DNA of 64,000 nucleotides from an uncultured Acidobacteriota bacterium (GCA_963851415.1 CAWKPF010000002.1:4438239-4502238), one strand, 5' to 3'; shown: positions 1,847 to 38,372, counted from the stretch's first letter. The notes: generated from the letters alone by a model not told the origin. Made by a program: numbers and translations.

Positions 1847-2857
1847 CTACTGGGATTGGAGGTACTCGAGAAACTGCTTGGCCTCGGCGGCGTTCGGGTG
1901 ATCGGGAGCGATCTCCAGCATCTTCTGGAAATCCGCGATGGCCTCGGCGTTGCTGGCCTTGCCGAGGTAGACGAGACCGCGATAGTAGTACGGCTCGGGG
2001 AGATCGGGATACTCGGCGACGATGAGATCGAAGTCGGCGAGAGCGCCGTCGAGGTCGTTGGCGTTGTACTTCTGGATCCCCTGGTTGAGCAGCGCGTTGG
2101 GGTCGACCTTCTGTCCTTCGGGAAGGCGCGCCATGTACTGCTCGGCCTCCTCCTGGCGGCCTTCGTTGACCAGGACACTCGAGATCAAGGTGAGCGATTC
2201 GACGTGGTCCGGATCGATCGCCAGACCCTTCTCCAGGGCTGCGAGAGTCGCTTCGGTGTTGCCCTCCTGGAAGTGAGTCTTGGCCAGGGTCAGGTAGAGG
2301 TCGGGGTGCTTCGAGGCGTCCAACTGCCCCATGGCCTCTTCGATCAGCCCCCGTGCCCCGGCGTAGTCCCCCTGCTCGATCAGGGCTCCGGCCTGCGAGA
2401 GGGTTGCCGTCGCGGCGGCTGCCGCTGCGGCCGCGGCTGCCGCCGCCGCGTCGTCGCCGCCGCCGGTGGCTGCGACGGCCGAGAGCGTCAGGAGCTTGGT
2501 GTGGATCGTCTCGTTGTTGCCGAACTCGCTCACCGGGAAGGTCCCGACCGATTCCTCGTAGCCGTCCAGTTGGATGGTGACCTGCCAGGGACCGCCGCCC
2601 AGCCCGAGGTAGCTCCAACGTCCCTTCTTGTTGGTCGTCAGGGGGTCGGGCCCCTTGTCGGTGTCGGGACGGCGCAGGGTGACGGTGGCTCCCTCGACGG
2701 GGTTGCCGTCGCCGTCGACCACCGCACCCTGCACTCTGCCCCGCCCGCTCCAGTCCTGGGCGGAGACGGGAGTGGCCAGGGCGATCAGGAGCGCCAACAT
2801 GCTGAGCCACAGCAGGGAGTTCTCGGGGGCGCGAGCGCGCAACGATTTCCTTGTCAT
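1847..2857 (-). CDS. Secreted protein with N-terminal carboxypeptidase-regulatory-like (CarbopepD_reg) beta-sandwich, poly-Ala/Thr linker and C-terminal TPR repeats.
   Basis: ORF 1847..2896 with three in-frame ATGs at 2896, 2878 and 2857. The ATG at 2857 has a Shine-Dalgarno-like sequence (aaggtagg) and is followed directly by the signal peptide LLWLSMLALLIALATPVSAQ. The CarbopepD_reg-like block is GRVQGAVVDGDGNPVEGATVTL...GGGPWQVTIQLDGYE. A run of 13 Ala follows, then TPR-like helices (AGARGLIEEAM..., YYYRGLVYLGKASNAEAIADFQKMLEIAPDH). Confidence 0.8.
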   Translation of the reverse strand: MTRKSLRARAPENSLLWLSMLALLIALATPVSAQDWSGRGRVQGAVVDGDGNPVEGATVTLRRPDTDKGPDPLTTNKKGRWSYLGLGGGPWQVTIQLDGYEESVGTFPVSEFGNNETIHTKLLTLSAVAATGGGDDAAAAAAAAAAAAATATLSQAGALIEQGDYAGARGLIEEAMGQLDASKHPDLYLTLAKTHFQEGNTEATLAALEKGLAIDPDHVESLTLISSVLVNEGRQEEAEQYMARLPEGQKVDPNALLNQGIQKYNANDLDGALADFDLIVAEYPDLPEPYYYRGLVYLGKASNAEAIADFQKMLEIAPDHPNAAEAKQFLEYLQSQ

Positions 2858-6644: not shown

Positions 6645-9605
6645 CTACTTCCAGGCCAGACGCACGCCCAGGCGGTAGATGCGCGGGCTGACGTTGTCCT
6701 GCAGCCAGTCGGCGGAGCTGATGTCGAGCTGCCGCTGACGCGACATCTCGGTGCCCACGTTGGTGACGTTGAACACATCGATGCCGAAGGTCATGTTGAT
6801 GGGACCGGTGAGGTTGAACTCCTTCTCGAGCCGGAGGTCCAGCGTCGTGAGGTCGTCCAGGCGGTTGCTGTCGACGTCCGCCACCGAGATGCGCCGGCGC
6901 AGGCCGTCCGACATCAAGGGGCGCACGAAGTACATCATGGGGTATCCCTCGCGGGCCGTGAGGGCACCGGAGACGTTGAAGCCCCAGGGCCGGTCCGGAG
7001 CGATCTGGTAGAGGCCGGTCACATTGGCGGACCAGGTCGACTGCAGAAACCGCTCGCCCTTGCCGGAGCCGGTCGCCCGGGTGACATAGGTCTCCCCGTC
7101 GACGTCGTTGCGCCCGGCGCGATCGATGTCGTTGACCACGAAGCCCTCGAGGTTGGGATCGCTGTTCTGGGTGAAGCTCGCGGGAACGTCCCACTCGGCC
7201 TTGCCGTAGTTGAAGTAGCCCCGCAGCATCCACCGGTTGGCCAGCCGCTTGGTGAAGTTGACGGCCGCTCCGAGGTAGTCACGCTGACGATCGCCATTGG
7301 TGAGGTACTTGCCCCCGGTGCGCTCGAAGCCGTCCCGCAGGGCGAAGATCGGCACGTCGTAGCTCCCTCCGCTCGGCAGTGTGCCCGTGACCGAACCGTC
7401 CGGCACGTAGTCCGAAGAGGTCTCGGTTCGCACGATGCCCTCGGGAGTCTCGATGTACCACCGCTCGTCGAGGATGTTGTCGACCTGGCGAGCGGTCACC
7501 GTGGCCCCGATCACGAACTCGGGCAGCAGCGCGTGCTCGATGCTGGCCACCAGCTCGGTGGTCATCGGGGCGTCGAGGCTCGAGTCCGTCACGTTGGCGC
7601 TCGAGAGCGCCGTCGGGTTGTCGGGATCGACACCGTTGGCACCCGCGAAGGCACCCAGCGGCTCGTTGGTGTACTTGCCACTGGCGAGGGTCGGCTCGAA
7701 CTCGTAGTAGAGGTACACGTAGCTCGCGGGGTTGGTGCGGTTGATGTCGGCGGTGGACAACTGATCCGCGAACTGCGAGAGGCTGGCCCGGATCAGAGTG
7801 TCCCGCTCGGCCCCCAGGGCGTAGGTGAAGCCCAGGCGCGGAGTGATCGTCTGCCAGCTGTACTCCGGTCCGAAGCCCGGGAAGTCGATCGCCGGTAGCA
7901 GATTCGGGAAACCGAGGTTGGCCGGGACCTGAGCGGCCTCGTTGGTGCCCTTCTGGTCGTCGTAGCGCAGACCCGCGTTGATGGTGAAGCGGCCGAGGCT
8001 GATCGTGTCCTGGGCCCACACCGAGAAGTACTCCTGGGTCACCGGCGTCGCGATCCCGCGCAGCATGGCCACCTGGGGCAGTCCGCCGTCGGCCATCGGA
8101 GTGGCGTCGGTGTAGATGTTGCGGCCCGGCCAGATGAACGTGCTCGAGGTCTCGTAGTTGCGGTAGCGACCACCGACCTTGAGCTCGTGGTTGGTGTTGC
8201 CGGTGTTGAAGAAGTACGAGCTGTCGGCCTTGAACTCCTGGTTGGGGCTGGCAGCACTACCGGACTGGTAGTTGTCCTGCCACACGCCGTCGACGTCGTA
8301 CAGGGTCTCGGGCGCGTTCACGCCGACACCACCCTTGGTGGCCAGGGCGAAGCCGAAGTCGCCGAGCGAGTAGGTGCCGGTCAAGAAGAAGTTCGAGGAG
8401 AACACGTGGGTGTCCTCGAAGCGGTAGGACGCCGAAGGACCGCGCTGGTTCCAGGTCGTGATGTCGGGACGGGTCACGCCCGCGCCACGACCGAACTTCT
8501 GCTTGTCGCCGTTGTTCCACGAAGCAACGAAGCTGTTGGCCTGGGTGAACTGGGCGTTGGCCTTGAGCGCGGTGTTCTCGAGGATGGTGTCGTCGGCGGT
8601 GCCGGAGGCGGCGTTCTGCTGGATGTCGTTCTGCCCCCAGGAGCCCCACATCCAGAAGCGGTCACGAAGAACCGCACCACCGGCCTCGAAACCCATCTCC
8701 TCGATCTCACGGATCTGGGCACCGGCATAGTCGGCGAGGTCCTGGCCCGGGCCCATGTCACTCTGGTCGACGTTGACGTCGGCCTGTTCGAGGGCGCCAC
8801 CGAAGTAGCCGTTGGCCTTGGTGTTGAAGAACCGGGCAGAGCCGCGGAACTCGTTGCTGCCGCGCTTGGTCACCAGGTTGATGGAGACGCCGGCCGTGGT
8901 CTTGGACACGTCGGTGCCGCCGGTGGTGAACTGCATCTCGGCGAACTGGTCGAAGTCGAAGTAGGTCGACGACGCGCCGATCGCGCGCATGTCGGTCACG
9001 GTGACCCCGTCCATGAGGAAGTCGTTCTGGTCGTCCCCCACGCCCTGGGCGCGGAACGAAGACTGCTGGCCGGATTCGCTGCCACCGACGTTGACGCGGT
9101 CGACGAGCACGCCGGGCGTCTGTCCGACGATCGCCCACGGGTCGCGCGCCGACGGAATGCGCTCGAGCTCGACCTGGGTGACGGTGGTGCCCTGGGAGAG
9201 CTGACGCTCATCCAGCAGCGGGCTCTCGGAGGTCACGGTGATGGTCTCCTCGAGGGCGCTCTGGAGAACCAGCGGCACCGTCGTGTTGCGACCGATGCGC
9301 ACCTCGACGCCCGGGTACTCGACCGAGCCGAAGCCGTCGAGCTCGGCCTTGAGAGTCACGAGACCGGGGTCGATGGCCAGGAAGCGGAACTGCCCCTGCT
9401 GATCGGTCATCTGGGTTTTTTCGGCTCCGAGGCCGCTGATGGTCACGGTGACGCCCGGAAGGGCGGCTCCGTCGGCGTCGGTAACGGTGCCATAGACGTT
9501 TCCGGTCGGGGCCTGAGCCGCGGCCGGAGAAGCGAAGACACCTGCGATGAGGGCTGCGACCGCGGCGAGAACCAGAAGGCCTCGCAAAGTCTCAGTCGTC
9601 CGCAT
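6645..9605 (-). CDS. TonB-dependent receptor-like outer-membrane protein with N-terminal carboxypeptidase-regulatory-like domain (paralog 2, tandem duplicate of 3112..6054).
   Basis: ATG at 9605 preceded by aaggaga. Signal peptide MRTTETLRGLLVLAAVAALIAGVFASPAAAQA. Long stretches identical to paralog 1 (NVYGTVTDADG, ETITVTSESPLLDERQLSQGTTVTQVELERIPSARDPWAIVGQTPGVLVDRVNVGGSESGQQS, RFWMWGSWGQNDIQQNA). The ORF-track N-terminal extension to 9851 is rejected for lack of a signal peptide there. Confidence 0.88.
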   Translation of the reverse strand: MRTTETLRGLLVLAAVAALIAGVFASPAAAQAPTGNVYGTVTDADGAALPGVTVTISGLGAEKTQMTDQQGQFRFLAIDPGLVTLKAELDGFGSVEYPGVEVRIGRNTTVPLVLQSALEETITVTSESPLLDERQLSQGTTVTQVELERIPSARDPWAIVGQTPGVLVDRVNVGGSESGQQSSFRAQGVGDDQNDFLMDGVTVTDMRAIGASSTYFDFDQFAEMQFTTGGTDVSKTTAGVSINLVTKRGSNEFRGSARFFNTKANGYFGGALEQADVNVDQSDMGPGQDLADYAGAQIREIEEMGFEAGGAVLRDRFWMWGSWGQNDIQQNAASGTADDTILENTALKANAQFTQANSFVASWNNGDKQKFGRGAGVTRPDITTWNQRGPSASYRFEDTHVFSSNFFLTGTYSLGDFGFALATKGGVGVNAPETLYDVDGVWQDNYQSGSAASPNQEFKADSSYFFNTGNTNHELKVGGRYRNYETSSTFIWPGRNIYTDATPMADGGLPQVAMLRGIATPVTQEYFSVWAQDTISLGRFTINAGLRYDDQKGTNEAAQVPANLGFPNLLPAIDFPGFGPEYSWQTITPRLGFTYALGAERDTLIRASLSQFADQLSTADINRTNPASYVYLYYEFEPTLASGKYTNEPLGAFAGANGVDPDNPTALSSANVTDSSLDAPMTTELVASIEHALLPEFVIGATVTARQVDNILDERWYIETPEGIVRTETSSDYVPDGSVTGTLPSGGSYDVPIFALRDGFERTGGKYLTNGDRQRDYLGAAVNFTKRLANRWMLRGYFNYGKAEWDVPASFTQNSDPNLEGFVVNDIDRAGRNDVDGETYVTRATGSGKGERFLQSTWSANVTGLYQIAPDRPWGFNVSGALTAREGYPMMYFVRPLMSDGLRRRISVADVDSNRLDDLTTLDLRLEKEFNLTGPINMTFGIDVFNVTNVGTEMSRQRQLDISSADWLQDNVSPRIYRLGVRLAWK

Positions 9606-10240
9606 GATGATCGTCTCCTTTGACGAAATGGGCGGACCTGAGGGGGTCCGCGAGTGTGCCGAACCGCACCGCTGTCGATGGAGGTCGGCGGTTCGATGTG
9701 CTTGCCAGGGGTAAGAGCAAGGCTGATGCCATTCGCCAGGCTGCCGGGAAAAGCCTTTGTTTTCAGTAGCTTGGGAGGCGACGATCGAGGCCTCCAGCGC
9801 TGGGACGAACGAGGGACGGGAAAGGGACGGTCCTGGGACCGGACGATTCAATGGGACGAATGGAATCGAGATTTATGAACTGCCGCCGAGGCGCCGCCAA
9901 CGGCCCGGGAGCGGGGCCGAGGGAGGAACGCTGGTCGCAAGCGCCCGGATCCAGGGATGCTCGGGGAGGTCGCCTGGCCCGGTCGGGAGTGGTGCGAGTG
10001 GGCTCCGGTTCGGGCTCCAGACGGCGGGAAGCCGGGATCGGGCTCCGGTATCTTCGGTGCCCTGTCTCGGCCCCGGGACGACCGGGGGCTCTCGACCCGA
10101 GCCGCTCGGGGGCGGCGAGCGAAGAGAACCCGCGGAGCGCGAGATCCGTACAAGGAGGACTGCTCTCTCCTTCGGGGATCCGCGACCTCGGTCACGGGAC
10201 TGTTGTCCGGGACTGTTAGGGTGCGCTTCCTGTCTGGGAG

Positions 10241-11377
10241 ATGACGATGACTCGAATGACGACCCTTGCCAAGAGACTGATTCTGGCCGCCGCGGTCTCG
10301 ACCCTGGCGGCCTGCTCGACCTATCAACCCCTCGACACCGAGAAGATGCTCTCGGAGGACCTCGACACCCTGGTCGATCCGGAGCTGCAGGCGTTGCTGA
10401 TCGTTCCCTATGAGCTGGACGACAGCGTTCGGGAGTCGATTCGGGGACGGGTCAACCCGGCTGCGAGCGAGCGTCGCCGCAGCGAGGCGATCCAGGACTT
10501 CATCTTCGGCAACCTCGACCTGCAGTATGCGTTGACACCGACTCGCGATGCGGTGGCGACGTACCACATGGCGCAGGGCAACTGCCTCTCCTTCGTCAAC
10601 CTCTTCGTCGGGATCGGTCGCGAGATGCGCTTGAATCCGTTCTACGTCGAGGTCGAAGATTATCAGCGATGGAACTACCAGGATGGCGTCGTGGTCAGCC
10701 GTGGGCACATCGTGGCCGGCATGTACATCGACGGCGAGCTCTCGACCTTCGACTTCCTTCCGTACCGTCCCAAGTCGTACAAGGAGTTCAAGCCGATCAG
10801 CGATGTGTGGGCCACGGCGCACTACTACAACAACCTGGGTGCGGAGGCGCTGATGGACGAGCGCCTGGAAGAGGCCGGCCGGTTCCTCGAGATCGCGCAC
10901 CAGCTCTCCCCGACCTTCGACAAGGCGATCAACAACCTGGGGATCGTGCGCATGCGCAACGGGGACGTCGAGGGGGCGATCGAGCTCTACGAGCGAGGGC
11001 GCGAGATTCATCCGGAGGACGTGCCGATCCTGAGCAACCTGACCCGCGCCTATCAGCAGAACGGACAGGTGGAGGAGGCCGACGAGCTGCTCGACTATCT
11101 CGAAAAGGTCAACCAGACGAATCCGTTCTTCTTCGTCTATCGCGGCGACGTCGCGCTGGCCAACGGAGACACGGTCACGGCTCTGGAATACATGCGCAAG
11201 GCCTACACCACGGACACGGAGCTTCCCGAGGTGCACGTGGGACTGGCGCGGGTGTACCTCGCGATCGGGAAGACCAAGGAGGCGCAGCATCACATCGAGC
11301 GCGCGCTCAAGTTGGACGCCACGCACGAGGAGGCGCGCAAGTACGCCGCGATGTTGATTCCGAGCACCCGCAACTGA
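10241..11377 (+). CDS. Lipoprotein with transglutaminase-like cysteine-protease core (Cys-His-Asp) and C-terminal TPR repeats.
   Basis: ATG start. Lipobox LAAC (VSTLAAC). Transglutaminase-core-like blocks GNCLSFVNLFVGIGREMRLNPFYV (Cys) and RGHIVAGMYIDGELSTFDF (His, Asp). TPR-like repeats from about aa 200 (AHYYNNLGAEAL, AINNLGIVRMRNGDVEGAIELYERG, NLTRAYQQNGQVEEADELLDY, YRGDVALANGDTVTALEYMRKA, LARVYLAIGKTKEAQHHIERALKLD). Confidence 0.85.
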   Translation: MTMTRMTTLAKRLILAAAVSTLAACSTYQPLDTEKMLSEDLDTLVDPELQALLIVPYELDDSVRESIRGRVNPAASERRRSEAIQDFIFGNLDLQYALTPTRDAVATYHMAQGNCLSFVNLFVGIGREMRLNPFYVEVEDYQRWNYQDGVVVSRGHIVAGMYIDGELSTFDFLPYRPKSYKEFKPISDVWATAHYYNNLGAEALMDERLEEAGRFLEIAHQLSPTFDKAINNLGIVRMRNGDVEGAIELYERGREIHPEDVPILSNLTRAYQQNGQVEEADELLDYLEKVNQTNPFFFVYRGDVALANGDTVTALEYMRKAYTTDTELPEVHVGLARVYLAIGKTKEAQHHIERALKLDATHEEARKYAAMLIPSTRN

Positions 11378-11471
11378 GTGCGCCCACGATCGAGTGCGCT
11401 ATGATGAAGAGTCACGGAGCGGATTCAAGGAGCAGATGCAGAGCAGGCAGGACACAACCAGGGAGAAGGCC

Positions 11472-13757
11472 ATGAACAGAGCCGATCGAGACGACGCTCC
11501 GAATCGGATTCCGAGTCCATCGAACATCGACACGGGAACCGGAACAGCGGCTCGTCGACGGGTTCTTTGTCGAGGGAAGGGTCTCCTCGCGTTCTGCCTC
11601 TGCGGTGTCCTGCTCGGTGCTCCGGCTGCCTGGGCTCAGGAGGAGGGCTCGACTCCGTCGCCCGACGACCTCGAGCAGTTCGAAGACCGTGCCGGGGTCT
11701 TCGAAGTCCAGGTTCCCGTCAACGTCGTGGATCGGGACGGGGCTCCGGTCCGCGACCTCACGATGGCCGACTTCGAGGTCTTCGACAAGGGGGAGCGCCA
11801 GGAGCTGACCGGCTTTCACGTGATCGATCTCGACACCATCGAGCCCGATCCGTTGCGGCCGAACGAGGCCGAGCAGCTCATTCCGTCGGCGGCGCGGCGT
11901 TACTTTCTCTTCTTGTTCGATCTCTCTTTCTCGGCCCCGAGCTCGGTGGTGCGTGCCCGCCAGGCCGCGCGCGACTTCGTGCTCAACGACATGCATCCCA
12001 CCGATCTGGCGGCCGTGGCCACGCATGCGGTCGAGGGCGGGGCGAAACTGATCATGACCTTCAGCCCCGATCGGGCACAGCTGGCGCGCGCCATCGACAC
12101 CCTGGGGGCTCCCAGGCTGCTCGCTCTGCAAAACCGCGACCCCTTGCGCTTCCTGGTCGATCTTCCCGAGGTCGCCTCCCTGCAGGCCGTCCAGGACGCC
12201 TCGACAGTCGACTCGAGCATTGCCCGAACGCAGGGGGCCGAGGTGAGCGCTTACCTGAACGTGATCGGTCGACAGATGATCAAGCAGGAGAAGAGCTACG
12301 CCATGGGGCGGGTTTCGACGTGGAGTGTCAGCATGGGGTCGATGGCCGAACTGCTGGGCGGCATCGAGGGTCGCAAGCACGTCGTGCTGTTCTCCGAGGG
12401 CTTCGACGGTCGCCTCATGCTCGGTCGGCAGCCCGACGAGATGGATCCCACCGAGCGGGCCGACATCGTCAACATCCAGAACGGCCAGTACCACATGGTC
12501 GACAACGACGACCGGTTCGGCAACACCCAGATCCAGGGCGCCATGAACGTCATGGTGCAGAAGTTCCGGGAGGCTGGGGCGGTGATCCAGGCGGTGGATA
12601 TCTCGGGTCTGCGGGCGGACCTGCCGGCCGAGCATCGGAGCCGTCGCGTCGGACAGGACGCGCTCTACACGTTGGCGAACGACACGGGCGGCACGCTCTA
12701 CGAGGACGCCAACGACTTCGGCGCGGAGCTGGCCGAGGTGCTGCGCCGCTCGACCGTGACCTACCTGCTCTCCTACACCCCTTCGGAGATGGGGGAGGCC
12801 GGTGAATATCGCCGGCTCGATGTGAAGGTCGAAGGGCACCGGGGCTCCAACGTCTCCCATCGCCAGGGCTACAAGGTGCCGCGGCCGTTCCAGGATCTCC
12901 ATCCGATGGAGAAGAGCCTGCTGGCGGCCGACCTGATCGCGACCGCCACCCTGCGCGACGATTTCGACATGCACGTGCTGGCCGCACCCTTTCGGGCGAC
13001 CGAGCAGGAGGCATATCTGCCCGTGATCATCGAGATCGCGGGCGCCGGTCTGCTGGCGGATCACGAGGCAGAGCAGTTGCCGGTCGAGTTCTATACGTAC
13101 GTCACCGACCAGAACGGCGAGATGCGCGACTTCTTCACCCAGAAGGTCACGCTCAACCTCACCGACCGCGATGCGTTCGTCTCCAGCGGCCTGAAGTACT
13201 ACGGGCACATCGACCTCGAGCCCGGCGAGTACATGTTGAGGGTACTGGCCCGGAACTCGAGCACGGGGCGCACGTCGGTGCGGACCGTTCAGGTCGACGT
13301 GCCGGAGTATGCCGAGCAGGCGCTCAGCCTGTTGCCTCCCTTCTTCCTCGAAGAGCCCGGGAGCTGGTTCCTGGTGCGTGAGCAGAGGCCGGGAGACGAC
13401 TACCGAAAGAGCACGGTCTATCCGTTTACGGTGAACGGCGAGCCGTACATTCCCTCGGCGAAGGCACGCTTCGAGGCCGGCGACAGTGCCGAGCTGTGTC
13501 TGGTGGCCTACAACTTCGGTGCCGGCCAGTTGCAGGTCGACACCCAGGTCATCGGGGTCGACGGGGCCACGGTCGATGGAGGCCGCCTGGCGGTGAAGGA
13601 GCGGACGGTGACCGGCATCGAAGGGCTCGACAAGGTGACCGCGACCTTCGAGACCGACGGACTGGCCGCAGGTGACTACACGCTGCAAGTGGCGTTGATC
13701 GATCCCTCCACCCAGACCCGGCAGGTCAACCAGATTCCCTTTCGCGTCGACGGTTGA
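11472..13757 (+). CDS. Secreted von Willebrand factor A (VWA) domain protein, TIGR03436-like (VWFA-related Acidobacterial domain) family, paralog 1.
   Basis: ATG at 11472 preceded by gggagaagg. Signal peptide LLAFCLCGVLLGAPAAWAQ. VWA-like blocks RYFLFLFDLSFS and VVLFSEGFDG. N-terminal beta-sandwich (VQVPVNVVDRDGAPVRDLTMADFEVFD). It is paralogous to 13900..16047 and 16067..17830. The ORF-track start at 11394 is possible but has no signal peptide. Confidence 0.8.
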   Translation: MNRADRDDAPNRIPSPSNIDTGTGTAARRRVLCRGKGLLAFCLCGVLLGAPAAWAQEEGSTPSPDDLEQFEDRAGVFEVQVPVNVVDRDGAPVRDLTMADFEVFDKGERQELTGFHVIDLDTIEPDPLRPNEAEQLIPSAARRYFLFLFDLSFSAPSSVVRARQAARDFVLNDMHPTDLAAVATHAVEGGAKLIMTFSPDRAQLARAIDTLGAPRLLALQNRDPLRFLVDLPEVASLQAVQDASTVDSSIARTQGAEVSAYLNVIGRQMIKQEKSYAMGRVSTWSVSMGSMAELLGGIEGRKHVVLFSEGFDGRLMLGRQPDEMDPTERADIVNIQNGQYHMVDNDDRFGNTQIQGAMNVMVQKFREAGAVIQAVDISGLRADLPAEHRSRRVGQDALYTLANDTGGTLYEDANDFGAELAEVLRRSTVTYLLSYTPSEMGEAGEYRRLDVKVEGHRGSNVSHRQGYKVPRPFQDLHPMEKSLLAADLIATATLRDDFDMHVLAAPFRATEQEAYLPVIIEIAGAGLLADHEAEQLPVEFYTYVTDQNGEMRDFFTQKVTLNLTDRDAFVSSGLKYYGHIDLEPGEYMLRVLARNSSTGRTSVRTVQVDVPEYAEQALSLLPPFFLEEPGSWFLVREQRPGDDYRKSTVYPFTVNGEPYIPSAKARFEAGDSAELCLVAYNFGAGQLQVDTQVIGVDGATVDGGRLAVKERTVTGIEGLDKVTATFETDGLAAGDYTLQVALIDPSTQTRQVNQIPFRVDG

Positions 13758-13899
13758 TGCGGTCGGCGGCGGAGGGGGTAGACTGAGCGAACCGTGAGAA
13801 GCCGTTCGCGCGGCCGGAGTCGAGACCGCCAGCGTCTTCGTTGATGCGGCTTCGATGTGGCCCCTGCTCTCACAGAAACCTCTTCGGAAGGACTGCCCC

Positions 13900-16047
13900 A
13901 TGAGTAGCCAGAATCGACTCCGCCGACCGATGGGCGCTTGTGCCGTGGTCACGCTGATCTGTGTCGCGCTGCTGGCCGGCCCCGCGATCGGCCAGCGCAA
14001 GAAGAAGGACAAGAAGAACGAGCAGTTCTCCGACGTGACCTCGGTGACCGTGATCGAGGTGCCGGTGAATGTGTCGGTGAAGGACGAGCCCGTGCGGGGA
14101 TTGACGGCGGATGACTTCACGGTGCTCGATGGGCGCAAGGAAGTGGAGATCGTCGGCTTCGACGTGATCGATCTCTCCGAGACCGAAGAGGGTGCGCCCG
14201 AGGTCGAGGTCACGGTGGCCGCTCGCCGGCACTTCCTCGCCTTCTTCGACCTGTCGTACTCCGATCCCTCCTCGGTCGATCGGGCACGGGAGTCGGCGGC
14301 CTCGCTGGTGATGGAGAGCCTGCACCCGAGCGACCTGGTGGCGGTGGCGACCTACAGCCGGTCGAAGGGACCTCGCATGGTGCTCGGCTTCACCACCGAC
14401 CGCAACCAGATCCGGCAGGCGATCGAGACCCTCGGATTCACCAACAGGGAGCGACCCTCCGAGGATCCTCTCGGCCTGGTCATCGGGGATCTCGATCGGG
14501 CCATCGACGGCGGTGGTGGCCTCGGGGGCGGCGGTGCCGATTCCGAGCTCCAGGCGAACATGCGCGAGCTCCAGAACCTCCAGTCCCAGGCACGCCAGGG
14601 CGAGGAGAGCTCACGGCTGGCGGAGCGCATGGACGGCCTCGCGGCGGTCGCGCAGATGATGGACGCCATCCAGGGGCGCAAGCACGTGCTCTACCTCTCC
14701 GAGGGCTTCGATTCGGAGTCCATCTTCGGGCGGGATACCAACAGCCTCGAAGACATCCAGGACGCGATCCGCGAGCAGCAAGCGGCCGAGTCGGGGCAAT
14801 ATCAGAACGTCAACTCCGACCGACGCTATGGCAACTCCCAGACGCGTGCGGTCGTCGATCGTGCCCTGCGAGCCTTCCGGCAGTCCAACTGCTCGATTCA
14901 GGCGGTCGACATCGGTGGCCTCCAGGCGGGGACCAAGAACAAGAACCTCGACTCACTCCGCTACATGGCCCGCGAGACGGGGGGCGACGCTTTCGCCAAC
15001 ACCAACAACCTGGGCGAGGCGATGGGGGAGATGCTGGCTCGCACCAGTGTGACCTACGTGCTGGCGATTCAGCCCAGCGACCTGCCCGAGCCGGGCGAGT
15101 TCAGAGAGCTCACCGTCAAGCTCGAGAACGGTCCCCGTGGCGCCGACGTCTCTCATCGTCCCGGCTACTACGCTCCGCGCGGCTACGCTCAGCAGTCGGC
15201 CTTCGAGCGCCAGCTCAGCACCGCGCAGAAGGTGGTCGGAGGGCAGGAGGGAAGCGGCTCGGTAGACCTGAGCGTGCTGGCTGGCGCCTTCGAAGCCTCG
15301 GGCAAAGCCTACGTGCCGGTGCTGGTGGAAGTCGACGGCAGCAGCTTGAGCGAAGGGCTCGCGGGTGAGGCGCTGCCGCTCGAGATCTACGCCTATGCGT
15401 TGGACTCCACCGGAGCGGTCCGCAGCTTCTTCAATCGGGGCGTGGGCCTGGACATGAAGGCGGTGGGGCCGGCGATCAACCAGAGTGGCGTCAAGTACTG
15501 GGGCCATTTCGATCTCGCCCCCGGCGAGTACACCGTGCGCGTGCTGGTGCGCAACAGCGAGACCGGCGCTGACGGGATCGACGTCAGTCACGTCACGGTG
15601 CCGGGCGGGGCGGACACCCCCTCGGCACTCCTTCCTCCCCTGTTCCCGGAGCCCGTGGGTTACTGGCTGATGTTGCGGGAGGAGGAGAGTGAGCAGCGGG
15701 CCGGAATCGATTTCCCGTTCATGGCTCATGGAGAGCCCTTCATTCCCGCGGCGCGGCCGAAGCTCTCGGGAGGGAGTGCGGCGAAGCTGCAGCTGGTGGC
15801 CTACAACCTCGGAGCGGGGGCGCTCAGCGCAACGGCTCAGCTTCTTTCGGAATCGGGCGAGACGGTGACCGGTAGCGAGCTGACGTTGGCTGACGACGCC
15901 GCCGGCAACGATGGGATGGCTCGTCTGGACGGTACCCTGGTGCCGGCCAAGGCTCCCGCGGGCGACTACACGCTGGTCGTCAATGTGAAGAACCTTGCCA
16001 GCGGGAGCCAGATGGTGTCTTCCCTACCGGTGACGATCGGCGGCTAG
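13900..16047 (+). CDS. Secreted VWA domain protein, TIGR03436-like, paralog 2.
   Basis: ATG at 13900 preceded by ggaagga. Signal peptide MGACAVVTLICVALLAGPAIG. Blocks VIEVPVNVSVKDEPVRGLTADDFTVLD, RHFLAFFDLSYS and HVLYLSEGFDS align with paralog 1. Confidence 0.82.
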   Translation: MSSQNRLRRPMGACAVVTLICVALLAGPAIGQRKKKDKKNEQFSDVTSVTVIEVPVNVSVKDEPVRGLTADDFTVLDGRKEVEIVGFDVIDLSETEEGAPEVEVTVAARRHFLAFFDLSYSDPSSVDRARESAASLVMESLHPSDLVAVATYSRSKGPRMVLGFTTDRNQIRQAIETLGFTNRERPSEDPLGLVIGDLDRAIDGGGGLGGGGADSELQANMRELQNLQSQARQGEESSRLAERMDGLAAVAQMMDAIQGRKHVLYLSEGFDSESIFGRDTNSLEDIQDAIREQQAAESGQYQNVNSDRRYGNSQTRAVVDRALRAFRQSNCSIQAVDIGGLQAGTKNKNLDSLRYMARETGGDAFANTNNLGEAMGEMLARTSVTYVLAIQPSDLPEPGEFRELTVKLENGPRGADVSHRPGYYAPRGYAQQSAFERQLSTAQKVVGGQEGSGSVDLSVLAGAFEASGKAYVPVLVEVDGSSLSEGLAGEALPLEIYAYALDSTGAVRSFFNRGVGLDMKAVGPAINQSGVKYWGHFDLAPGEYTVRVLVRNSETGADGIDVSHVTVPGGADTPSALLPPLFPEPVGYWLMLREEESEQRAGIDFPFMAHGEPFIPAARPKLSGGSAAKLQLVAYNLGAGALSATAQLLSESGETVTGSELTLADDAAGNDGMARLDGTLVPAKAPAGDYTLVVNVKNLASGSQMVSSLPVTIGG

Positions 16048-16066
16048 TCGGTGAGGCCTGATCGGC

Positions 16067-17830
16067 TCAACTTCCGACCGTCAAGCCCGTGCGCAAGAAC
16101 GAATGGCGCTGGCCGATCTCGTCGCGGATCCCGACGGCGATGTCCTGATAGCCCTCTTCGAGGGTGAGCGGCAGGTTCTTGACCAGGGGCTTGCCGACCA
16201 TCTGGTCGAGCATCTCGATCGGGATGTTCAGGTCGAGCGGGATCTCCTTGACGTCGGAGATCTCGTCGTTCTCGGCTTTGGCCGCAAACCAGACACGCAG
16301 TCGCGCGATGTGCGCAGTCTCTGCAGGAAGCAGGGTCAGACTGTCGAACGGGATCACGATGCGAAAGGGCACGGAGTACAGACCGTTCGGCTGAGGCTCG
16401 GGCTCGCCGAAGGCCAGCCTGATGTCGAGCGGATTGTCCTGGATGCCCAGGTTGAGCGCAGAGAGCGTTCCGTCGTGCATCCGAGTCTCGACGGAGCGGG
16501 ATCGGTAGCCATCCCGGTGGCGGACGGTCCATCCCTTGCCCTTGTCCTCGAGCTTGATCTCGATGCGATGGTAGCGCCCGTCCCCGACGTCGGCGCTGCT
16601 GTAGCCGAGAGAGTAGTAGTTTCGGAAGTCCGTACCGATCCGCTTGAGGTCCGGGAGGAAGCGATTGGTGTTGATGATGGCGCGGCCGCCGGTGCGCTCC
16701 GCCAGGTACTGCACCGTGCTCTGTAGATTGCTGGTGTTGACTCGATCGATCATCGCCCGCTCGCCGGCCTCGCCCTTGATCTCGTAGTCGACCGTTCCCT
16801 GGGAGATCACGGTCAGGCCACGGGCATCGACCGTGTAGAAGCTGACGCGGTTGGCGTTGGCGAGGTCCGCGAGAGCGTCGAACCGCTTGGAGAGGTCGTA
16901 CTCGAAGATCCGGTTCATGGAGAAGTTCTCCTTGAAGATCATCTGCACCTGCTGGAATAGATCTTCCCCCGGCATCATCGGCAGACCCTCGCTGACGTAG
17001 ATCAGCGCCTTGCGACCCGGAGAGGCGGCTAGGTTCTCGACCACGCTGCGCAGGGCGTCGACGGTGAACGAAGTGTCGTTGCGGATCGAGCCGGCCAGCT
17101 GCTCGGCATACATCTGTCCTTCCTGTGGAGAGTCGGCTTCTTCGATTCTCCTCAGGACGTCGATGCGCTCGCGGTCGAGGTGGATGCGTTGCGCAGAGAT
17201 CTCCTCGATCTCGAGCAGTGCGCGTGAAATGTTCTCCGGCCGCGCGGTGAAGGGGTGGCGCATGTGCAGCGCTCGATCGTAGGTCGCGAGCATGACCTCG
17301 TCCTCGGGACTCAGCTCCTGGCGTAGGAATTGCCGAAGCTCTCTCAGGACCTGGTTGCGCTTGAACGGGGTCAGGTTGTAGTTGTCGATGTAGATGACCA
17401 CATGCAGCCGCTGGCTGGCCGGTGTCGTGGCCTCTCCGAGACCGGGAGAGCGATCCGGCAGATTCGCTGCCGTGTCCGTCTGCGCATTCGGCGCCACATC
17501 GGCATCTTCGGCCGTTTCGCCGATCTCCAGCTTCTGAGACTCCTCCGCGACGGCGTAGAAGTTGCTGATCGCGGCCGGCTTGCCATCGACGAACAGTTTG
17601 AAGTCGTCCGAGGTGAGGCCGGTGACCGGGTTGCCGTCCTTGTCCCGCACGTAGACGTCGACGTTCACCACCTCGACGTTCATCGTGTCGGTGAACACGG
17701 TCGGCGTTCGCGGTGGCGCGGTGTCCTGCGGCTCCTGAGCCTCCTGAGACTGTCGCGCACTGGCTCCGGGCACGAGCACGCAGATGAAGGCGAGCCACGA
17801 CGTGAGTCGAAAGAAGGTTCGGTGATTCAT
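16067..17830 (-). CDS. Secreted VWA domain protein, TIGR03436-like, paralog 3 (convergent with paralog 2).
   Basis: ATG at 17830 followed by the signal peptide MNHRTFFRLTSWLAFICVLVPGASA. Blocks NVEVVNVDVYVRDKDGNPVTGLTSDDFKLFVD, LHVVIYIDNYN and ALIYVSEGLPMMPG match the same family architecture. The ORF-track extension to 18211 lacks a signal peptide and is rejected. Confidence 0.82.
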   Translation of the reverse strand: MNHRTFFRLTSWLAFICVLVPGASARQSQEAQEPQDTAPPRTPTVFTDTMNVEVVNVDVYVRDKDGNPVTGLTSDDFKLFVDGKPAAISNFYAVAEESQKLEIGETAEDADVAPNAQTDTAANLPDRSPGLGEATTPASQRLHVVIYIDNYNLTPFKRNQVLRELRQFLRQELSPEDEVMLATYDRALHMRHPFTARPENISRALLEIEEISAQRIHLDRERIDVLRRIEEADSPQEGQMYAEQLAGSIRNDTSFTVDALRSVVENLAASPGRKALIYVSEGLPMMPGEDLFQQVQMIFKENFSMNRIFEYDLSKRFDALADLANANRVSFYTVDARGLTVISQGTVDYEIKGEAGERAMIDRVNTSNLQSTVQYLAERTGGRAIINTNRFLPDLKRIGTDFRNYYSLGYSSADVGDGRYHRIEIKLEDKGKGWTVRHRDGYRSRSVETRMHDGTLSALNLGIQDNPLDIRLAFGEPEPQPNGLYSVPFRIVIPFDSLTLLPAETAHIARLRVWFAAKAENDEISDVKEIPLDLNIPIEMLDQMVGKPLVKNLPLTLEEGYQDIAVGIRDEIGQRHSFLRTGLTVGS

Positions 17831-18095: not shown

Positions 18096-18222
18096 CCCCC
18101 CGGAATCGCCGGGCAGTCCGCTGGGGTCGGCTCGCTCGCCCCTGCGAGACGAGCTCCTTCAGTGGACTCGCCCCGATCGGTGGCTCTACACTCGCTGCGA
18201 TGTCCTCGCACCGCGCCACGGC

Positions 18223-20308
18223 TTGTCTTGCCACCCTCGGACTTCTCTGGGCAGGAGCTGCGGTCGGCTCCGAGGCGAGCCCTGGCGAGCCGCCCGAGCG
18301 CCGCAACGTGTTGCTGGTGTCCGTCGACACGCTGCGCCCCGATGCCCTCGGCTGCTATGGCTCACCCCGGGCCTCGACCCCGTATATCGACTCGCTGGCG
18401 GCGCGGGGGGTGCGCTTCGAGTGGGCGCTCGCCCCGACTCCGCTGACTCTTCCTTCCCACGCTTCGCTGCTCACCGGGCGGGAGCCTCCCGGTCACGGCC
18501 TGAGGGACAACAGCGGCTTTCTGCTGGCCGACGGGGTGGAGACCCTGGCCGGGGCGCTCCAGAAAGGTGGCTATGCGACCGGAGCGTTCGTGGCGGCTCT
18601 CCCCCTCGACTCTCAGTTCGGGCTCGACCGCGGCTTCGATCACTACGACGATCGGCTCACGGGATCCACGCGGCTGCGTGCCGCCACCGCGATGGCGGAG
18701 CGCGGAGCCGAAGAGGTGGCCGATGCCACGATCGGTTGGCTCGAGCTCCAGCAGGACTCCCGTTGGTTCGCCTGGGTGCACTTCTACGATCCCCATGCGC
18801 CCTACGATCCTCCCGAGCGTTTCGCCGCGAGCGGGGACCGCACGGCCTACGCGGGGGAGGTGAGCTACGTCGACGAGCAGATCGGCCGGTTGCTCGCATG
18901 GCTCACGAAGCGCCAGTGGCTGAACGAGACCCTGGTGGTCTTGACCGCCGATCACGGTGAGAGTCTGGGTGAGCATGGCGAGCTCACCCACGGCATCTTC
19001 GCCTACGAGAGCACCCTGCGGGTGCCGCTGATCTTCGCGCCCTTCGACACCAGGGTCGAGGAGCGGCGGGTGCGCCTGATCGATCTGGCGCCGACCATTC
19101 TCGATCTGCAGGGGCTGTCGTTCGACGAGGGAGTCGACGGCGAGTCGCTCGCCCCCTTGCTGCGGGGTGAGTCGGCCGAGGGCCCGCCCTCGCCCAGCTA
19201 CTTCGAGGCCCTCACCATGCACCTGAACATGGGATGGGCACCGCTGCGCGGAATCTACGCCGAGCGTTTCAAGTACATCGAGCTGCCGATTGCAGAGCTC
19301 TACGATCTCGATGTCGATCGAGGAGAATCGAAGAACCTCTGTGTCGAGCCGGCCGCCTGCGAGGCCTGGGGCGAACGACTCGTCGAGCTCGCCGGAGTGC
19401 TCGTGTCCCCTCGGCCCGAAGTCGGTGTCGATCCTCAGATGCAGGCACAGCTCGAGGCTCTGGGCTATGTAGCAGGGGGATCTTCCGGAGAGCATCGACG
19501 CTACGGCCCCGGAGACGATCCCAAGCGGCTGGTCGGACTGTGGAACCGCGTGAACGCGGCGGTGGCGGCGCACCAACAAGGGCGACACGAATCGGCGCTC
19601 GCCGAGCTCGCCGCGGTGGCCGCCGAACGGCCGTCGATGCCGTTGGCCTACCTCAAGAGAGCGGCCATCCAGGACGAGCTCGGTCAGCTGGACGCGGCGA
19701 TCGCCACGCTCGAGCAGGCGGTGAGCGAGGGTGCGGGAGGCGTTTTCGTCGAGCGGGAGCTCGGCCTGCTGTTGGTGCGCAAGGGACGCGTCGACGAGGC
19801 GGTTCGGCATCTGCAGCGTGCCGAGCAGGAGGGGCCGGATCGGCTCGACGTCCTCGATGCCCTCGCCTCGGCCTATCTGGCCGCGGGCCAGTCCGAGCTG
19901 GCCGAGCGAACCTATCGCCGGGCCCTCTCGATCGACGACTCGTCCGTGCGGCTCCATCTTCAGCTGGGTACGTTGCTGATGCTCATCGATCGGGTCGAGG
20001 AGGCGGTCGATGCCTTTCGAAGCGCCGTGAACCACGGTCCGGACGTGGCGCAGGCACATACCGGACTCGGACTGGCTCTGGCGAGCTCGGGTCGTAGGGA
20101 CGAGGCGATGTCCAGTTGGCAGCGTGCGCTCGAGCTGGATCGCTCCGAACTGAGCGCGATGCTGCAGCTCGGCTTCGCCTATCTGGAGCGAGGAGACCGT
20201 GCGAGAGCGACTCCGCTCCTCGAGGAGTTTCTCGAGAGCGCCCCCCCGGAGCGCTATGCGCGCGAGATCGAGCTGGTGCGCTCGACGCTCGGACGCGCCG
20301 GCGGCTGA
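18223..20308 (+). CDS. Secreted sulfatase-fold (alkaline-phosphatase superfamily) enzyme fused to C-terminal TPR repeats (paralog of 1..1757).
   Basis: ATG at 18223. Signal peptide MSSHRATACLATLGLLWAGAAVG. Sulfatase-family blocks NVLLVSVDTLRPDALGCYG, LTADHGESLGEHGELTHGIFAYESTLRVPLIF and RFKYIELPIAELYDLDVDRGESKN. The C-terminal ~230 aa are TPR-like (LAYLKRAAIQDELGQLDAAIATLEQA..., AHTGLGLALASSGRRDEAMSSWQRALELD). The longer ORF-track start at 17960 gives an R-rich extension without a signal peptide and is rejected. Confidence 0.88.
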
Positions 20309-35545: not shown

Positions 35546-35552
35546 GGGGTGA

Positions 35553-38351: not shown

Positions 38352-38372
38352 CCCGGCCTCTGGCTCGCTGGT

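What the first reader, a model, noticed from the sequence alone, without database searches (positions are those of the whole stretch)
10241..17830. Transglutaminase-like cysteine-protease/TPR lipoprotein followed by three paralogous secreted VWA (TIGR03436-like) proteins
A lipoprotein with an intact Cys-His-Asp transglutaminase-core triad and five or more TPR repeats is followed co-directionally by two ~750-aa VWA proteins. Each VWA protein has its own signal peptide and SD, with gaps of 94 and 142 nt. A third VWA paralog is encoded convergently, with only 19 nt between the stops. Transglutaminase-like enzymes crosslink or cleave proteins, and VWA domains mediate metal-dependent protein-protein adhesion. 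The grouping suggests a cell-surface assembly or crosslinking module. The setup is reminiscent of BatA/BatB-type VWA+TPR aerotolerance operons and of MoxR-VWA-transglutaminase operons, but it lacks the AAA+ ATPase. The function of TIGR03436-family proteins is unknown, so a fixed partnership with a transglutaminase-like lipoprotein would be informative.
Basis: partly seen in the sequence, partly recalled or inferred. Interest (0 to 1): 0.6.

Follow-up and report, generated by a model that had tools for sequence, protein, structure and literature searches.

The report
Transglutaminase-fold lipoprotein with VWA partners
A membrane-anchored enzyme-like protein (a Cys-His-Asp "transglutaminase-fold" domain fused to TPR repeats) is encoded next to the same secreted VWA adhesion-type proteins in about 95% of related genomes, so this is a genuine but uncharacterised cell-envelope module of one acidobacterial class.

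Summary
Window 10241-17830 encodes a lipoprotein with a transglutaminase/papain-like Cys115-His156-Asp171 domain plus 5.5 TPRs. Two co-directional secreted TIGR03436 VWA proteins follow (V1, V2), and a third lies convergent (V3).

Across 160 related loci, all named ones Thermoanaerobaculia-type Acidobacteriota, a V1/V2-like gene follows the lipoprotein gene in 114 of 119 testable cases. None of 301 family hits lies upstream, so the partnership is fixed and not random paralog scatter.

The conserved block is larger than reported. It includes a divergent TonB-dependent-receptor-like outer-membrane barrel, a CarboxypepD_reg-TPR protein and "sulfatase"-TPR proteins.

- The triad is invariant down to 24% identity.
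- V1 keeps a MIDAS-like site; V2 and V3 are degenerate.
- V1 and V2 carry two extra C-terminal Ig-like domains.
- No MoxR ATPase lies nearby.
- A second lipoprotein clade (29% identity) pairs with a minimal TIGR03436 VWA and an Ank-TonB_C gene in 4 of 4 loci; three or four other clades show no VWA.

Best reading (about 0.45): an exported, ATPase-less counterpart of MoxR-vWA-transglutaminase-like peptidase systems, linked to TonB-dependent outer-membrane machinery. Whether the enzyme cleaves or crosslinks is unresolved. This is a new variant of a known kind, of moderate interest.

The parts
1847..2857 (-). CarboxypepD_reg + TPR secreted protein (g1847), a conserved member of the block
   Evidence: Pfam PF13620 plus TPRs. 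The start at 2857 has an SD and a signal peptide. A homolog is present in 54 of 59 genome loci and 16 of 18 metagenome loci with enough upstream sequence.
3112..6054 (-). TonB-dependent-receptor-like outer-membrane barrel, copy 1 (CarboxypepD_reg + Plug)
   Evidence: Pfam PF13620 at 56 bits and Plug at 25 bits. Start refined.
6645..9605 (-). TonB-dependent-receptor-like outer-membrane barrel, copy 2, divergent from the lipoprotein gene
   Evidence: Pfam PF13620 at 57.6 bits and Plug at 26 bits. A divergent TBDR-like gene is adjacent in 64 of 67 genome loci and 34 of 36 metagenome loci.
9606..10240 (.). Divergent intergenic region of about 640 bp between the barrel gene and the lipoprotein gene
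   Evidence: No Rfam match. No sigma-70-like site.
10241..11377 (+). TG-TPR lipoprotein (378 aa; the true start is probably 10247)
   Evidence: Lipobox LAAC with Cys25 invariant. About 58-72% identity to more than 100 ortholog clusters. AF2 model pLDDT 84.7.
10454..10765 (+). Transglutaminase/papain-like core (aa 72-175). Cys115 is at 10583-10585, His156 at 10706-10708 and Asp171 at 10751-10753.
   Evidence: PF01841 at 19.9-21.8 bits for the window protein; 11 of 11 orthologs hit it alone. The triad is invariant to 24% identity. Helix 115-128 starts at the Cys, and His and Asp sit on strands 157-163 and 166-170.
10802..11356 (+). TPR domain, 11 helices (five repeats plus a cap)
   Evidence: Many Pfam TPR families. 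Helices 188-372 in the model. Foldseek top hits are TPR superhelices.
11472..13757 (+). V1: a secreted TIGR03436 VWA protein. It has an N-terminal beta-sandwich (aa 79-119), a VWA domain (aa 143-470) with a long helical and disordered insert, and two C-terminal Ig-like domains (aa 495-760). The MIDAS-like residues are D150, S152 and S154.
   Evidence: TIGR03436 at 158 bits. AF2 model pLDDT 74. Foldseek hits RbmA, PrgB Ig, integrin alphaX-beta2 and ANTXR2. D-x-S/T-x-S is conserved at 100, 100 and 96% in 75 orthologs.
13900..16047 (+). V2: tandem paralog of V1 with the same architecture. Its MIDAS is degenerate in most orthologs.
   Evidence: TIGR03436 at 144 bits. phmmer 1e-131 to V1. The middle MIDAS Ser/Thr is present in only 34% of 67 orthologs. 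Two or more co-directional V genes occur in 59 of 65 genome loci and 27 of 31 metagenome loci.
16067..17830 (-). V3: a distant TIGR03436 paralog, convergent, with one C-terminal beta domain and a non-canonical D-N-x-N-L-T motif
   Evidence: TIGR03436 at 204 bits. The motif is invariant in 34 orthologs. A V3-like gene is present in 34 of 59 genome loci with enough flank.
18200..20308 (+). Alkaline-phosphatase-superfamily ('sulfatase') + TPR secreted protein; a looser member of the block
   Evidence: PF00884 at 154 bits plus TPRs. It has T-L-P-S-H in place of the C/S-x-P-x-R formylglycine motif. Paralogs flank the cluster in most loci.

Best explanation
This is a conserved cell-envelope module of Thermoanaerobaculia-type Acidobacteriota.

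**The proposed mechanism.** A lipid-anchored protein carries an active Cys-His-Asp thiol-enzyme domain of the transglutaminase/papain fold, most probably a peptidase, isopeptidase or amidase rather than a crosslinker. It also carries a TPR platform. It is co-transcribed with two exported TIGR03436 VWA proteins that likely act as a pair. V1 would be the partner with a metal-dependent binding site. V2 would be a structural partner with a degenerate site. I propose that the TPR domain holds the VWA proteins, or clients captured by V1, next to the thiol active site at the membrane. This would be the periplasmic, ATPase-less counterpart of the cytoplasmic MoxR-vWA-transglutaminase-like peptidase systems. 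The module would work together with a TonB-dependent-type outer-membrane barrel.

**Shown here.** Gene content, export signals, conservation of the triad, the MIDAS status of each paralog, domain architecture, fixed synteny, and the absence of a nearby AAA+ gene.

**Inferred.** Catalytic activity, the hydrolase direction, a physical TPR-VWA contact, V1-V2 pairing, and TonB coupling.
For: **Synteny.**
- A V1/V2-like gene follows TG co-directionally in 73 of 76 genome loci and 41 of 43 metagenome loci. A divergent barrel gene is present in 64 of 67 and 34 of 36.
- With a family HMM, 301 of 301 TIGR03436-like ORFs lie downstream of TG and none lie in 818 kb upstream.
- The estimated median distance from the TG stop to the first V start is about 15 nt in genome loci.

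**Enzyme domain.**
- C115, H156 and D171 are invariant across family members at 24-43% identity.
- The model topology fits a papain/transglutaminase core.
- Distant members pass the PF01841 gathering score.

**Export.**
- The lipobox Cys is invariant.
- All three VWA proteins have signal peptides.

**VWA proteins.**
- V1 keeps D-x-S/T-x-S, while V2 and V3 do not.
- The VWA + Ig-like architecture resembles ANTXR2, integrin and RbmA-type binding or matrix proteins.

**No ATPase.** No AAA+ gene is in the window or in the flanks of L164 and L165.

**Recurrence.** A second TG-TPR clade (29% identity) pairs with a minimal, canonical-MIDAS TIGR03436 VWA (187-188 bits in the two tested) and an Ank-TonB_C gene. 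This holds in 4 of 4 loci, two of which have different flanks.

**Published precedent.** The MoxR-vWA-TGL operon is inferred to be a membrane-proximal degradation system in which vWA recruits and TGL cleaves (PMC3495828).
Against: - There is no direct evidence of any interaction or activity.
- The window protein itself is below the Pfam gathering score.
- The full-model Foldseek search returned only TPR hits, so the fold of the N-domain was not independently matched to a solved structure. The N-domain profile finds no PDB sequence.
- No conserved cleavage motif or sorting signal was found in the VWA proteins.
- Three or four other TG-TPR clades have no VWA neighbour.
- The second-clade recurrence could be a chance adjacency inherited within a shallow clade whose members are 73-78% identical. 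My rough estimate of that chance is about 0.1.
- The subcellular location (inner or outer membrane leaflet, periplasm or surface) is unknown.
Confidence: 0.45

Rival explanations
1. Crosslinking module. The lipoprotein would be a true transglutaminase that forms Gln-Lys isopeptide bonds. These bonds would polymerise V1/V2, or fix them to the envelope, to build a surface or matrix layer.
For: - The same intact Cys-His-Asp triad is present.
- The V1 C-terminal half resembles the biofilm matrix scaffold RbmA by Foldseek.
- V1 and V2 have disordered, Gln-containing loops inside the VWA domain, at aa 220-255 with pLDDT below 50.
- Some bacterial TG-like proteins, such as TgpA, have reported transglutaminase activity (my own knowledge).
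Against: - The disordered loops and N-termini are not conserved, so no fixed donor or acceptor site is evident.
- Most microbial TG-fold domains are inferred or shown to be hydrolases (PMC3495828; Makarova 1999 from memory).
- No surface-sorting signal is present.
Confidence: 0.15
2. Nutrient-capture locus analogous to a Sus-like PUL. The CarboxypepD_reg-Plug barrel would import a substrate. The TPR lipoprotein would play a SusD-like cap or processing role. The VWA/Ig-like proteins would be SusE/F-like binders. The 'sulfatase'-TPR enzymes would trim the substrate. The thiol enzyme would then act on the nutrient, not on the VWA proteins.
For: - The barrel gene and the AP-superfamily hydrolase genes are part of the conserved block.
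- The barrel has the SusC-like N-terminal CarboxypepD_reg + Plug arrangement.
- A distant TG-TPR gene in Zhongshania sits next to a classical TonB-dependent receptor.
- The second clade carries a TonB_C gene.
Against: - Neither the lipoprotein nor the barrel matches any SusD or SusC family at the thresholds used.
- The barrel is divergent from the lipoprotein gene, not co-directional with it.
- The VWA proteins are not lipoproteins.
- Very high conservation and single-copy synteny across soil, sediment and sponge lineages suggests a housekeeping role rather than a substrate-specific one.
- No riboswitch or regulator hints at a substrate.
Confidence: 0.2
3. Non-catalytic scaffold. The TG-fold domain would only bind peptides, and the lipoprotein would be an assembly or pilotin-type TPR factor for the barrel or for the VWA proteins.
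For: - TPR lipoproteins such as PilW, Tgl, GltE and BamD are assembly factors. The TPR part gives weak hits to these families.
- Inactive TG-like domains that merely bind peptides are known (PMC3495828).
Against: Strict invariance of Cys, His and Asp, plus the flanking N114, R127 and F172, over a family spanning 24-100% identity is the signature of a retained active site.
Confidence: 0.1
4. Conserved gene order without a functional link. TIGR03436 genes are abundant acidobacterial paralogs that happen to be frozen next to this lipoprotein gene in one lineage.
For: - Three or four other TG-TPR clades lack VWA neighbours.
- All named loci come from one class.
Against: - About 95% retention persists while the proteins diverged to 51-67% identity and while the flanks changed.
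- Spacing is tight and co-directional.
- There are zero family hits upstream.
- A TIGR03436 partner recurs in a clade only 29% identical.
Confidence: 0.05

Closest known systems
MoxR AAA+ - vWA - YebA/TgpA-type transglutaminase-like (TGL) peptidase operon (Zhang & Aravind 2012, PMC3495828)
   Same: A membrane-associated TG-fold Cys-His-Asp domain is genetically coupled to VWA-domain protein(s). In the published model, VWA recruits substrates and TGL cleaves them at the membrane.
   Different: - No MoxR ATPase lies in the window or the flanks examined.
- The TG domain is exported on a lipoprotein and fused to TPRs, rather than sitting in a cytoplasmic loop of a polytopic protein.
- The VWA proteins are Sec-exported TIGR03436 members with Ig-like tails.
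- An outer-membrane barrel is part of the block.
Bat (Bacteroides aerotolerance) operon: BatA/BatB VWA + BatC/BatE TPR (own knowledge)
   Same: Envelope VWA proteins occur in tandem, together with TPR proteins.
   Different: - BatA and BatB are membrane-anchored by TM helices and usually follow MoxR and DUF58. Neither is present here.
- No BatA or BatB model is reached by V1-V3.
- BatC scores 21.6 bits against a cut-off of 175.
- Bat operons have no TG-fold enzyme.
LapG-LapA system (a periplasmic transglutaminase-like cysteine protease, BTLCP/DUF920, that releases a VWA-containing adhesin; own knowledge)
   Same: A periplasm-facing Cys-His-Asp TG-fold enzyme acts on an exported adhesin that contains a VWA domain and is held at an outer-membrane channel. 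This is a plausible mechanistic analogue.
   Different: - There is no Pfam DUF920/BTLCP hit; only PF01841 is matched.
- No T1SS, LapD or c-di-GMP receptor is encoded nearby.
- The VWA proteins are small Sec substrates, not giant RTX adhesins.
- No di-alanine-type conserved cleavage motif was seen.
Myxococcus Agl-Glt outer-membrane platform with the VWA adhesin CglB (Islam et al. 2023, PMC9946355)
   Same: An N-terminal beta-sandwich + VWA protein works with outer-membrane barrels, TPR lipoproteins and TonB/TolA-like force transducers. The present block has barrels and TPR proteins, and the second clade has a TonB_C gene.
   Different: - CglB is itself a lipoprotein with a canonical MIDAS.
- The Glt system has no TG-fold enzyme.
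- The GltE model scores 38 bits against a cut-off of 225.
- No Agl motor genes are nearby.
TIGR03436 (acidobact_VWFA) family
   Same: V1, V2 and V3 all pass the curated cut-off.
   Different: Minimal members are about 300 aa with a canonical D-x-S-x-S / S-T / T-D-G MIDAS. V1 and V2 differ in three ways.
- They carry large inserts in the VWA domain.
- They have an S-E-G motif in place of T-D-G.
- They have two added Ig-like domains.
SusC/SusD-type polysaccharide utilisation loci (own knowledge)
   Same: A CarboxypepD_reg-Plug outer-membrane barrel sits next to a helical-repeat lipoprotein and Ig-like-domain binding proteins.
   Different: No SusD-family or SusC-specific model is matched. The genes are divergent rather than tandem. 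The lipoprotein carries a thiol-enzyme domain.

Membership tests
Transglutaminase-like superfamily (Pfam PF01841, Transglut_core) | Score at or above the Pfam gathering threshold (23 bits) | tested here: inconclusive
   The window protein scores 19.9 bits full-length and 21.8 bits for the N-domain alone, below 23. All 11 orthologs hit PF01841 and nothing else, with a best E-value of 4.7e-6. Distant family members, linked by an N-domain profile at E 1e-18 to 1e-36, pass with 26.5-43.7 bits.
Transglutaminase-like superfamily (Pfam PF01841, Transglut_core) | Cys-His-Asp catalytic triad in order, with Cys at the N-terminus of a helix and His and Asp on adjacent beta-strands | tested here: met
   C115, H156 and D171 are invariant in 18 orthologs and in 14 sequences at 24-43% identity. 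In the AF2 model, helix 115-128 starts at the Cys and strands 157-163 and 166-170 carry the His and Asp. Side-chain geometry could not be measured because no coordinates were available.
Bacterial lipoprotein | Signal peptide ending in a lipobox [LVI][ASTG][GAS]C | tested here: met
   The sequence is ...AVSTLAAC25S. Cys25 is invariant in 18 orthologs and present in most distant relatives.
TIGR03436 (acidobact_VWFA) | Score at or above the NCBIfam cut-off of 81.25 bits | tested here: met
   V1 scores 158.1, V2 143.8 and V3 204.5 bits.
VWA domain with a functional MIDAS | D-x-S-x-S ... T ... D metal-coordinating residues | tested here: inconclusive
   - V1 orthologs: D 100%, S/T 100%, S 96%. There is an S/T at the Thr position in 69-85%, and Glu (99%) replaces the last Asp.
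- V2 orthologs: the middle S/T is present in only 34%, and the Thr position is lost.
- V3 orthologs: an invariant non-canonical D-N-x-N-L-T motif.
- Metal binding is not testable here.
MoxR-vWA-TGL operon | A MoxR-family AAA+ ATPase gene adjacent to the vWA and TGL genes | tested here: not met
   No AAA+ or MoxR Pfam hit was found in any large ORF scanned across the 64-kb window. None was found within 10 kb either side in the two annotated ortholog loci, L164 and L165.
Bat aerotolerance operon | BatA/BatB-type VWA proteins and a BatC TPR protein reaching the family models | tested here: not met
   No BatA or BatB model is hit by V1-V3 at E <= 0.01. TPR_BatC_Lepto scores 21.6 bits against a cut-off of 175.
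LapG / BTLCP (DUF920) peptidases | Match to the DUF920/BTLCP family model | tested here: not met
   A Pfam scan of the N-domain and 10 orthologs at E <= 10 returns only PF01841.
PA2778-family C39-like cysteine peptidase + TPR (NF033920) | Match across the peptidase domain, at or above 150 bits | tested here: not met
   The score is 32.6 bits and covers only the TPR part (residues 270-358 against model positions 165-253).
SusC/SusD pair | A SusD-family lipoprotein encoded directly downstream of a SusC-type TonB-dependent transporter | tested here: not met
   No SusD-like Pfam or NCBIfam hit for the lipoprotein. The barrel gene is divergent, not upstream and co-directional.
TonB-dependent receptor | Plug domain plus a 22-strand barrel, and a TonB box | tested here: inconclusive
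   Plug scores 25-26 bits, just above the gathering score of 23.9, alongside CarboxypepD_reg. No PF00593 hit and no NCBIfam hit were found for the second copy; the first was not scanned against NCBIfam. The TonB box was not examined.

The most novel reading that the evidence does not exclude
The module would be an extracytoplasmic, TonB-energised equivalent of the MoxR-vWA-TGL degradation or remodelling machine. In the ATP-free periplasm, a TonB-type force transducer would replace the AAA+ unfoldase. That transducer would be the barrel's TonB box in this clade, or the dedicated Ank-TonB_C protein in the second clade. It would pull on a VWA-bound client, or on the VWA protein plugged into the barrel, and so expose it to the lipoprotein's thiol peptidase. 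This would give TIGR03436 proteins, a large acidobacterial family of unknown function, their first mechanistic role.
Probability: 0.15. Interest if true: 0.75.

Novelty: new variant of a known kind. Interest (0 to 1): 0.5.

Why it matters
TIGR03436 is a large, paralog-rich family typical of Acidobacteriota, and I found no literature on its function in four full-text searches. In public records the lipoprotein is annotated only as a 'tetratricopeptide repeat protein', so its thiol-enzyme domain is hidden.

This work shows that one TIGR03436 subfamily is locked to a catalytically intact transglutaminase-fold lipoprotein and to an outer-membrane barrel across a whole class. That gives a concrete and testable entry point: a C115A mutant, V1 MIDAS mutants, and co-expression followed by mass spectrometry. 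The organisms are widespread but largely uncultured, in soil, sediment, wastewater and sponges.

It also extends the known VWA-transglutaminase-like peptidase pairing from the cytoplasmic face (with MoxR) to the exported compartment (without an ATPase).

Tried and rejected
- **Foldseek on the lipoprotein model.** A search of the full model against the PDB returned only TPR proteins.
- **N-domain profile against PDB sequences.** It gave only a chance-level hit to an arenavirus glycoprotein, E 0.18.
- **V1/V2 profile against PDB sequences.** It gave only a marginal Ig-domain hit, E 0.06.
- **Literature.** Searches for TIGR03436, 'VWFA-related' + Acidobacteria, Thermoanaerobaculia + von Willebrand, and the four-term combination all returned nothing.
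- **Anti-phage defence reading.** Rejected. PADLOC gives only TPR-level matches, and all the proteins are exported.
- **Riboswitch or tRNA context.** None found.
- **Promoter and terminator scan.** Chance level.
- **Metagenome scan for intermediate TG-TPR relatives.** It was aimed at proteins about 43% identical but retrieved the same orthogroup. It replicated the synteny and did not extend it.
- **Source of the window.** Looking up the window's own contig failed because the protein is not on record.
- **C-terminal sorting signals.** I looked for PEP-CTERM, LPXTG, a T9SS CTD and an OMP-type terminal Phe. None is present; the proteins end at the last beta-strand.
- **True sulfatase reading of the neighbouring enzyme.** Rejected, because it has T-L-P-S-H instead of C/S-x-P-x-R.

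Full report
**1. What is in the sequence**

The window is about 66% G+C. I picked real genes by third-position GC. The region holds four genes that sit in the frame with GC3 of 0.81-0.87.
- A 378-aa lipoprotein at 10241-11377 (+). NCBI's 376-aa product and the SD spacing favour a start at 10247.
- V1 at 11472-13757 (+), 761 aa.
- V2 at 13900-16047 (+), 715 aa.
- V3 at 16067-17830 (-), 587 aa.

SD-like motifs precede TG, V1 and V2. All three V proteins pass the TIGR03436 cut-off. V1 and V2 are close paralogs (1e-131), V3 is distant (1e-12), and no other family member lies in the 64 kb.

**2. The lipoprotein**

Cys25 ends an L-A-A-C lipobox and is invariant in orthologs.

Pfam's Transglut_core scores only 19.9-21.8 bits for the window protein, below the gathering score of 23. 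The assignment is still solid, for four reasons.
- PF01841 is the only non-TPR family hit by all 11 N-domains tested.
- An N-domain profile finds 1,120 representative clusters, mostly 350-400-aa proteins. Sampled members show the same TG+TPR architecture, and most of those pass the gathering score at 24-43.7 bits.
- N114, C115, R127, H156, D171 and F172 are invariant in an alignment spanning 24-43% identity.
- The AlphaFold2 model (pLDDT 84.7) has helix 115-128 starting at the Cys, followed by a five-strand sheet with His156 and Asp171 on adjacent strands. Eleven TPR helices follow.

Foldseek on the whole model was swamped by TPR hits. No solved structure matches the N-domain by sequence. The fold match therefore rests on profile and topology evidence.

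**3. The VWA proteins**

The V1 model (pLDDT 74) shows these parts.
- A small N-terminal beta-sandwich.
- An alternating beta/alpha VWA domain, interrupted by a disordered loop (aa 220-255) and a long helix (aa 248-295).
- Two C-terminal Ig-like domains.

Foldseek hits include the biofilm scaffold RbmA, PrgB Ig domains, integrin alphaX-beta2 and ANTXR2, which is a VWA+Ig receptor.

MIDAS status differs between the paralogs.
- V1 orthologs keep D-x-S/T-x-S (100, 100 and 96%), and mostly keep a hydroxyl residue at the Thr position. They have an invariant S-E-G where canonical domains have T-D-G.
- V2 orthologs have lost the middle Ser/Thr in two-thirds of cases, and also the Thr.
- V3 orthologs have an invariant non-canonical D-N-x-N-L-T.

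Minimal TIGR03436 proteins from another clade show the canonical DSSAS / ST / TDG set. V1-V3 are therefore derived, insert-bearing versions. The C-termini end at the last beta-strand with no sorting signal.

**4. Is the partnership fixed?**

A genome scan with the lipoprotein family returned 80 species-level loci at 51-67% identity. Nearly all are labelled Thermoanaerobaculia, 'Ca. Multivorans' or Acidobacteriota; a few carry Holophagales or Vicinamibacteraceae names. A metagenome scan returned 80 more from the same orthogroup. Six-frame searches gave the counts below.

| Feature (among loci with enough flank) | Genome loci | Metagenome loci |
|---|---|---|
| Co-directional V1/V2-like gene downstream | 73 of 76 | 41 of 43 |
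| Two or more such genes | 59 of 65 | 27 of 31 |
| Divergent barrel gene upstream | 64 of 67 | 34 of 36 |
| CarboxypepD_reg-TPR gene | 54 of 59 | 16 of 18 |
| V3-like gene | 34 of 59 | not testable |

With a family-level HMM, all 301 TIGR03436-like ORFs lie downstream of the lipoprotein gene, and none lies in 818 kb of upstream flank. This rules out random paralog scatter.

The conserved unit is therefore: 'sulfatase'-TPR (-), CarboxypepD_reg-TPR (-), barrel (-) | TG-TPR (+), V1 (+), V2 (+), then often V3 (-) and another 'sulfatase'-TPR. Annotated ortholog loci confirm this order and show no AAA+ gene within 10 kb. None is in the window either.

**5. How far does it extend?**

Distant TG-TPR proteins have other contexts.
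- The P0268/P0403 clade sits after a cyclophilin-like gene with no VWA.
- P0271 lies among peptidases.
- A Zhongshania protein sits next to a classical TonB-dependent receptor.
- P0443 has neither.

One further clade behaves differently: P0410, P0414, P0419 and P0422. These are 29% identical to the window protein and 73-78% identical to each other. In 4 of 4 loci they have a convergent two-gene unit right after the TG-TPR gene, made of a roughly 305-aa VWA followed by Ank-TonB_C. The two VWAs tested score 187-188 bits on TIGR03436.

The link therefore recurs with a different arrangement and again touches the TonB system. I estimate roughly a 10% chance that such a second adjacency arises by accident, given paralog abundance, so this is supportive and not decisive.

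**6. Mechanism**

Shown here:
- an exported, lipid-anchored protein with a conserved thiol triad and a TPR platform;
- tight co-directional linkage to two exported VWA/Ig proteins, one MIDAS-competent and one degenerate;
- linkage to an outer-membrane barrel;
- no ATPase.

Inferred: the lipoprotein is an active hydrolase that works on, or with, the VWA proteins at the membrane. Zhang and Aravind inferred that the common MoxR-vWA-TGL operon is a membrane-proximal degradation system in which vWA recruits and TGL cleaves (PMC3495828). The present module looks like its exported, ATPase-less variant.

Two further systems are mechanistic analogues but fail membership tests. One is LapG/LapA (from my own knowledge). 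The other is the Myxococcus CglB/Glt platform, which combines a beta-sandwich+VWA adhesin, outer-membrane barrels, TPR lipoproteins and TonB-like transducers (PMC9946355).

Crosslinking, a PUL-like nutrient role, and a non-catalytic scaffold role remain open. I weight them at 0.15, 0.20 and 0.10.

**7. Verdict**

The finding is a new, lineage-specific variant of VWA-transglutaminase-like gene partnerships, with function still unproven. Interest is moderate (0.5). It offers a clean experimental handle on TIGR03436 and uncovers a hidden enzyme domain, but nothing here contradicts current understanding.

Noticed in passing
window 18200-20308 (+); paralogs in most related loci (e.g. L164 3153-5183, 17624-19816): The 'sulfatase' + TPR protein has T-L-P-S-H where formylglycine sulfatases have C/S-x-P-x-R. 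It is probably a Thr-nucleophile alkaline-phosphatase-superfamily phosphoesterase or transferase, not a sulfatase. One to three such genes flank the cluster in most loci.
   Followed up: partly
L067 9422-10873 (+), L087 1689-3455 (+), L164 20395-21149; absent from the window: A DUF3179-like gene (PF11376) lies between the lipoprotein gene and V1 in 46 of 160 related loci, and elsewhere in the flank in 13 more. The window has no homolog in its 64 kb.
   Followed up: partly
L082 11192-13072, L167 9190-10908, L170 9250-10986, L171 9193-10935: A second TG-TPR clade is followed by a convergent unit in 4 of 4 loci: a minimal VWA (TIGR03436 in the two tested, canonical MIDAS in all four) and then a protein with ankyrin repeats and a TonB C-terminal domain. 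CarboxypepD_reg barrels lie a few kb away in three of the four. The taxon is unknown.
   Followed up: partly
window 58903-62556 (-): A 1,217-aa FG-GAP repeat + TPR protein. Proteins with FG-GAP/UnbV_ASPIC repeats directly flank the TG-VWA cluster in L164 and L165 but lie about 40 kb away here. Finding integrin-like FG-GAP repeats near VWA genes is curious.
   Followed up: no
window 3112-6054 and 6645-9605 (-): The window has two tandem copies of the CarboxypepD_reg-Plug barrel gene, while most related loci have one. The N-termini of the two copies are nearly identical after the signal peptide (…APTGNVYGTVTDADG…).
   Followed up: no
window 9606-10240: An unusually long divergent intergenic region (about 640 bp, G+C-rich) lies between the barrel and lipoprotein genes. 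It has no Rfam match and no sigma-70-like promoter.
   Followed up: partly
window 33119-43808: Three ATP-grasp genes (34328-35560, 35553-36785, 42579-43808) lie with a Peptidase_S51-like gene (41539-42564) and a YkuD L,D-transpeptidase (33119-34327). This may be a peptide-ligase or cyanophycin-like cluster. It is unrelated to the finding.
   Followed up: no
window 36876-51489: A glycogen/alpha-glucan metabolism cluster: GT5 glycogen synthase, an alpha-amylase-family protein, a DUF3417 phosphorylase and a 4-alpha-glucanotransferase.
   Followed up: no
window 1847-2857 (-), aa ~140-160 of the product: A poly-alanine linker (about 14 Ala) lies between the CarboxypepD_reg domain and the TPR domain of g1847.
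   Followed up: no
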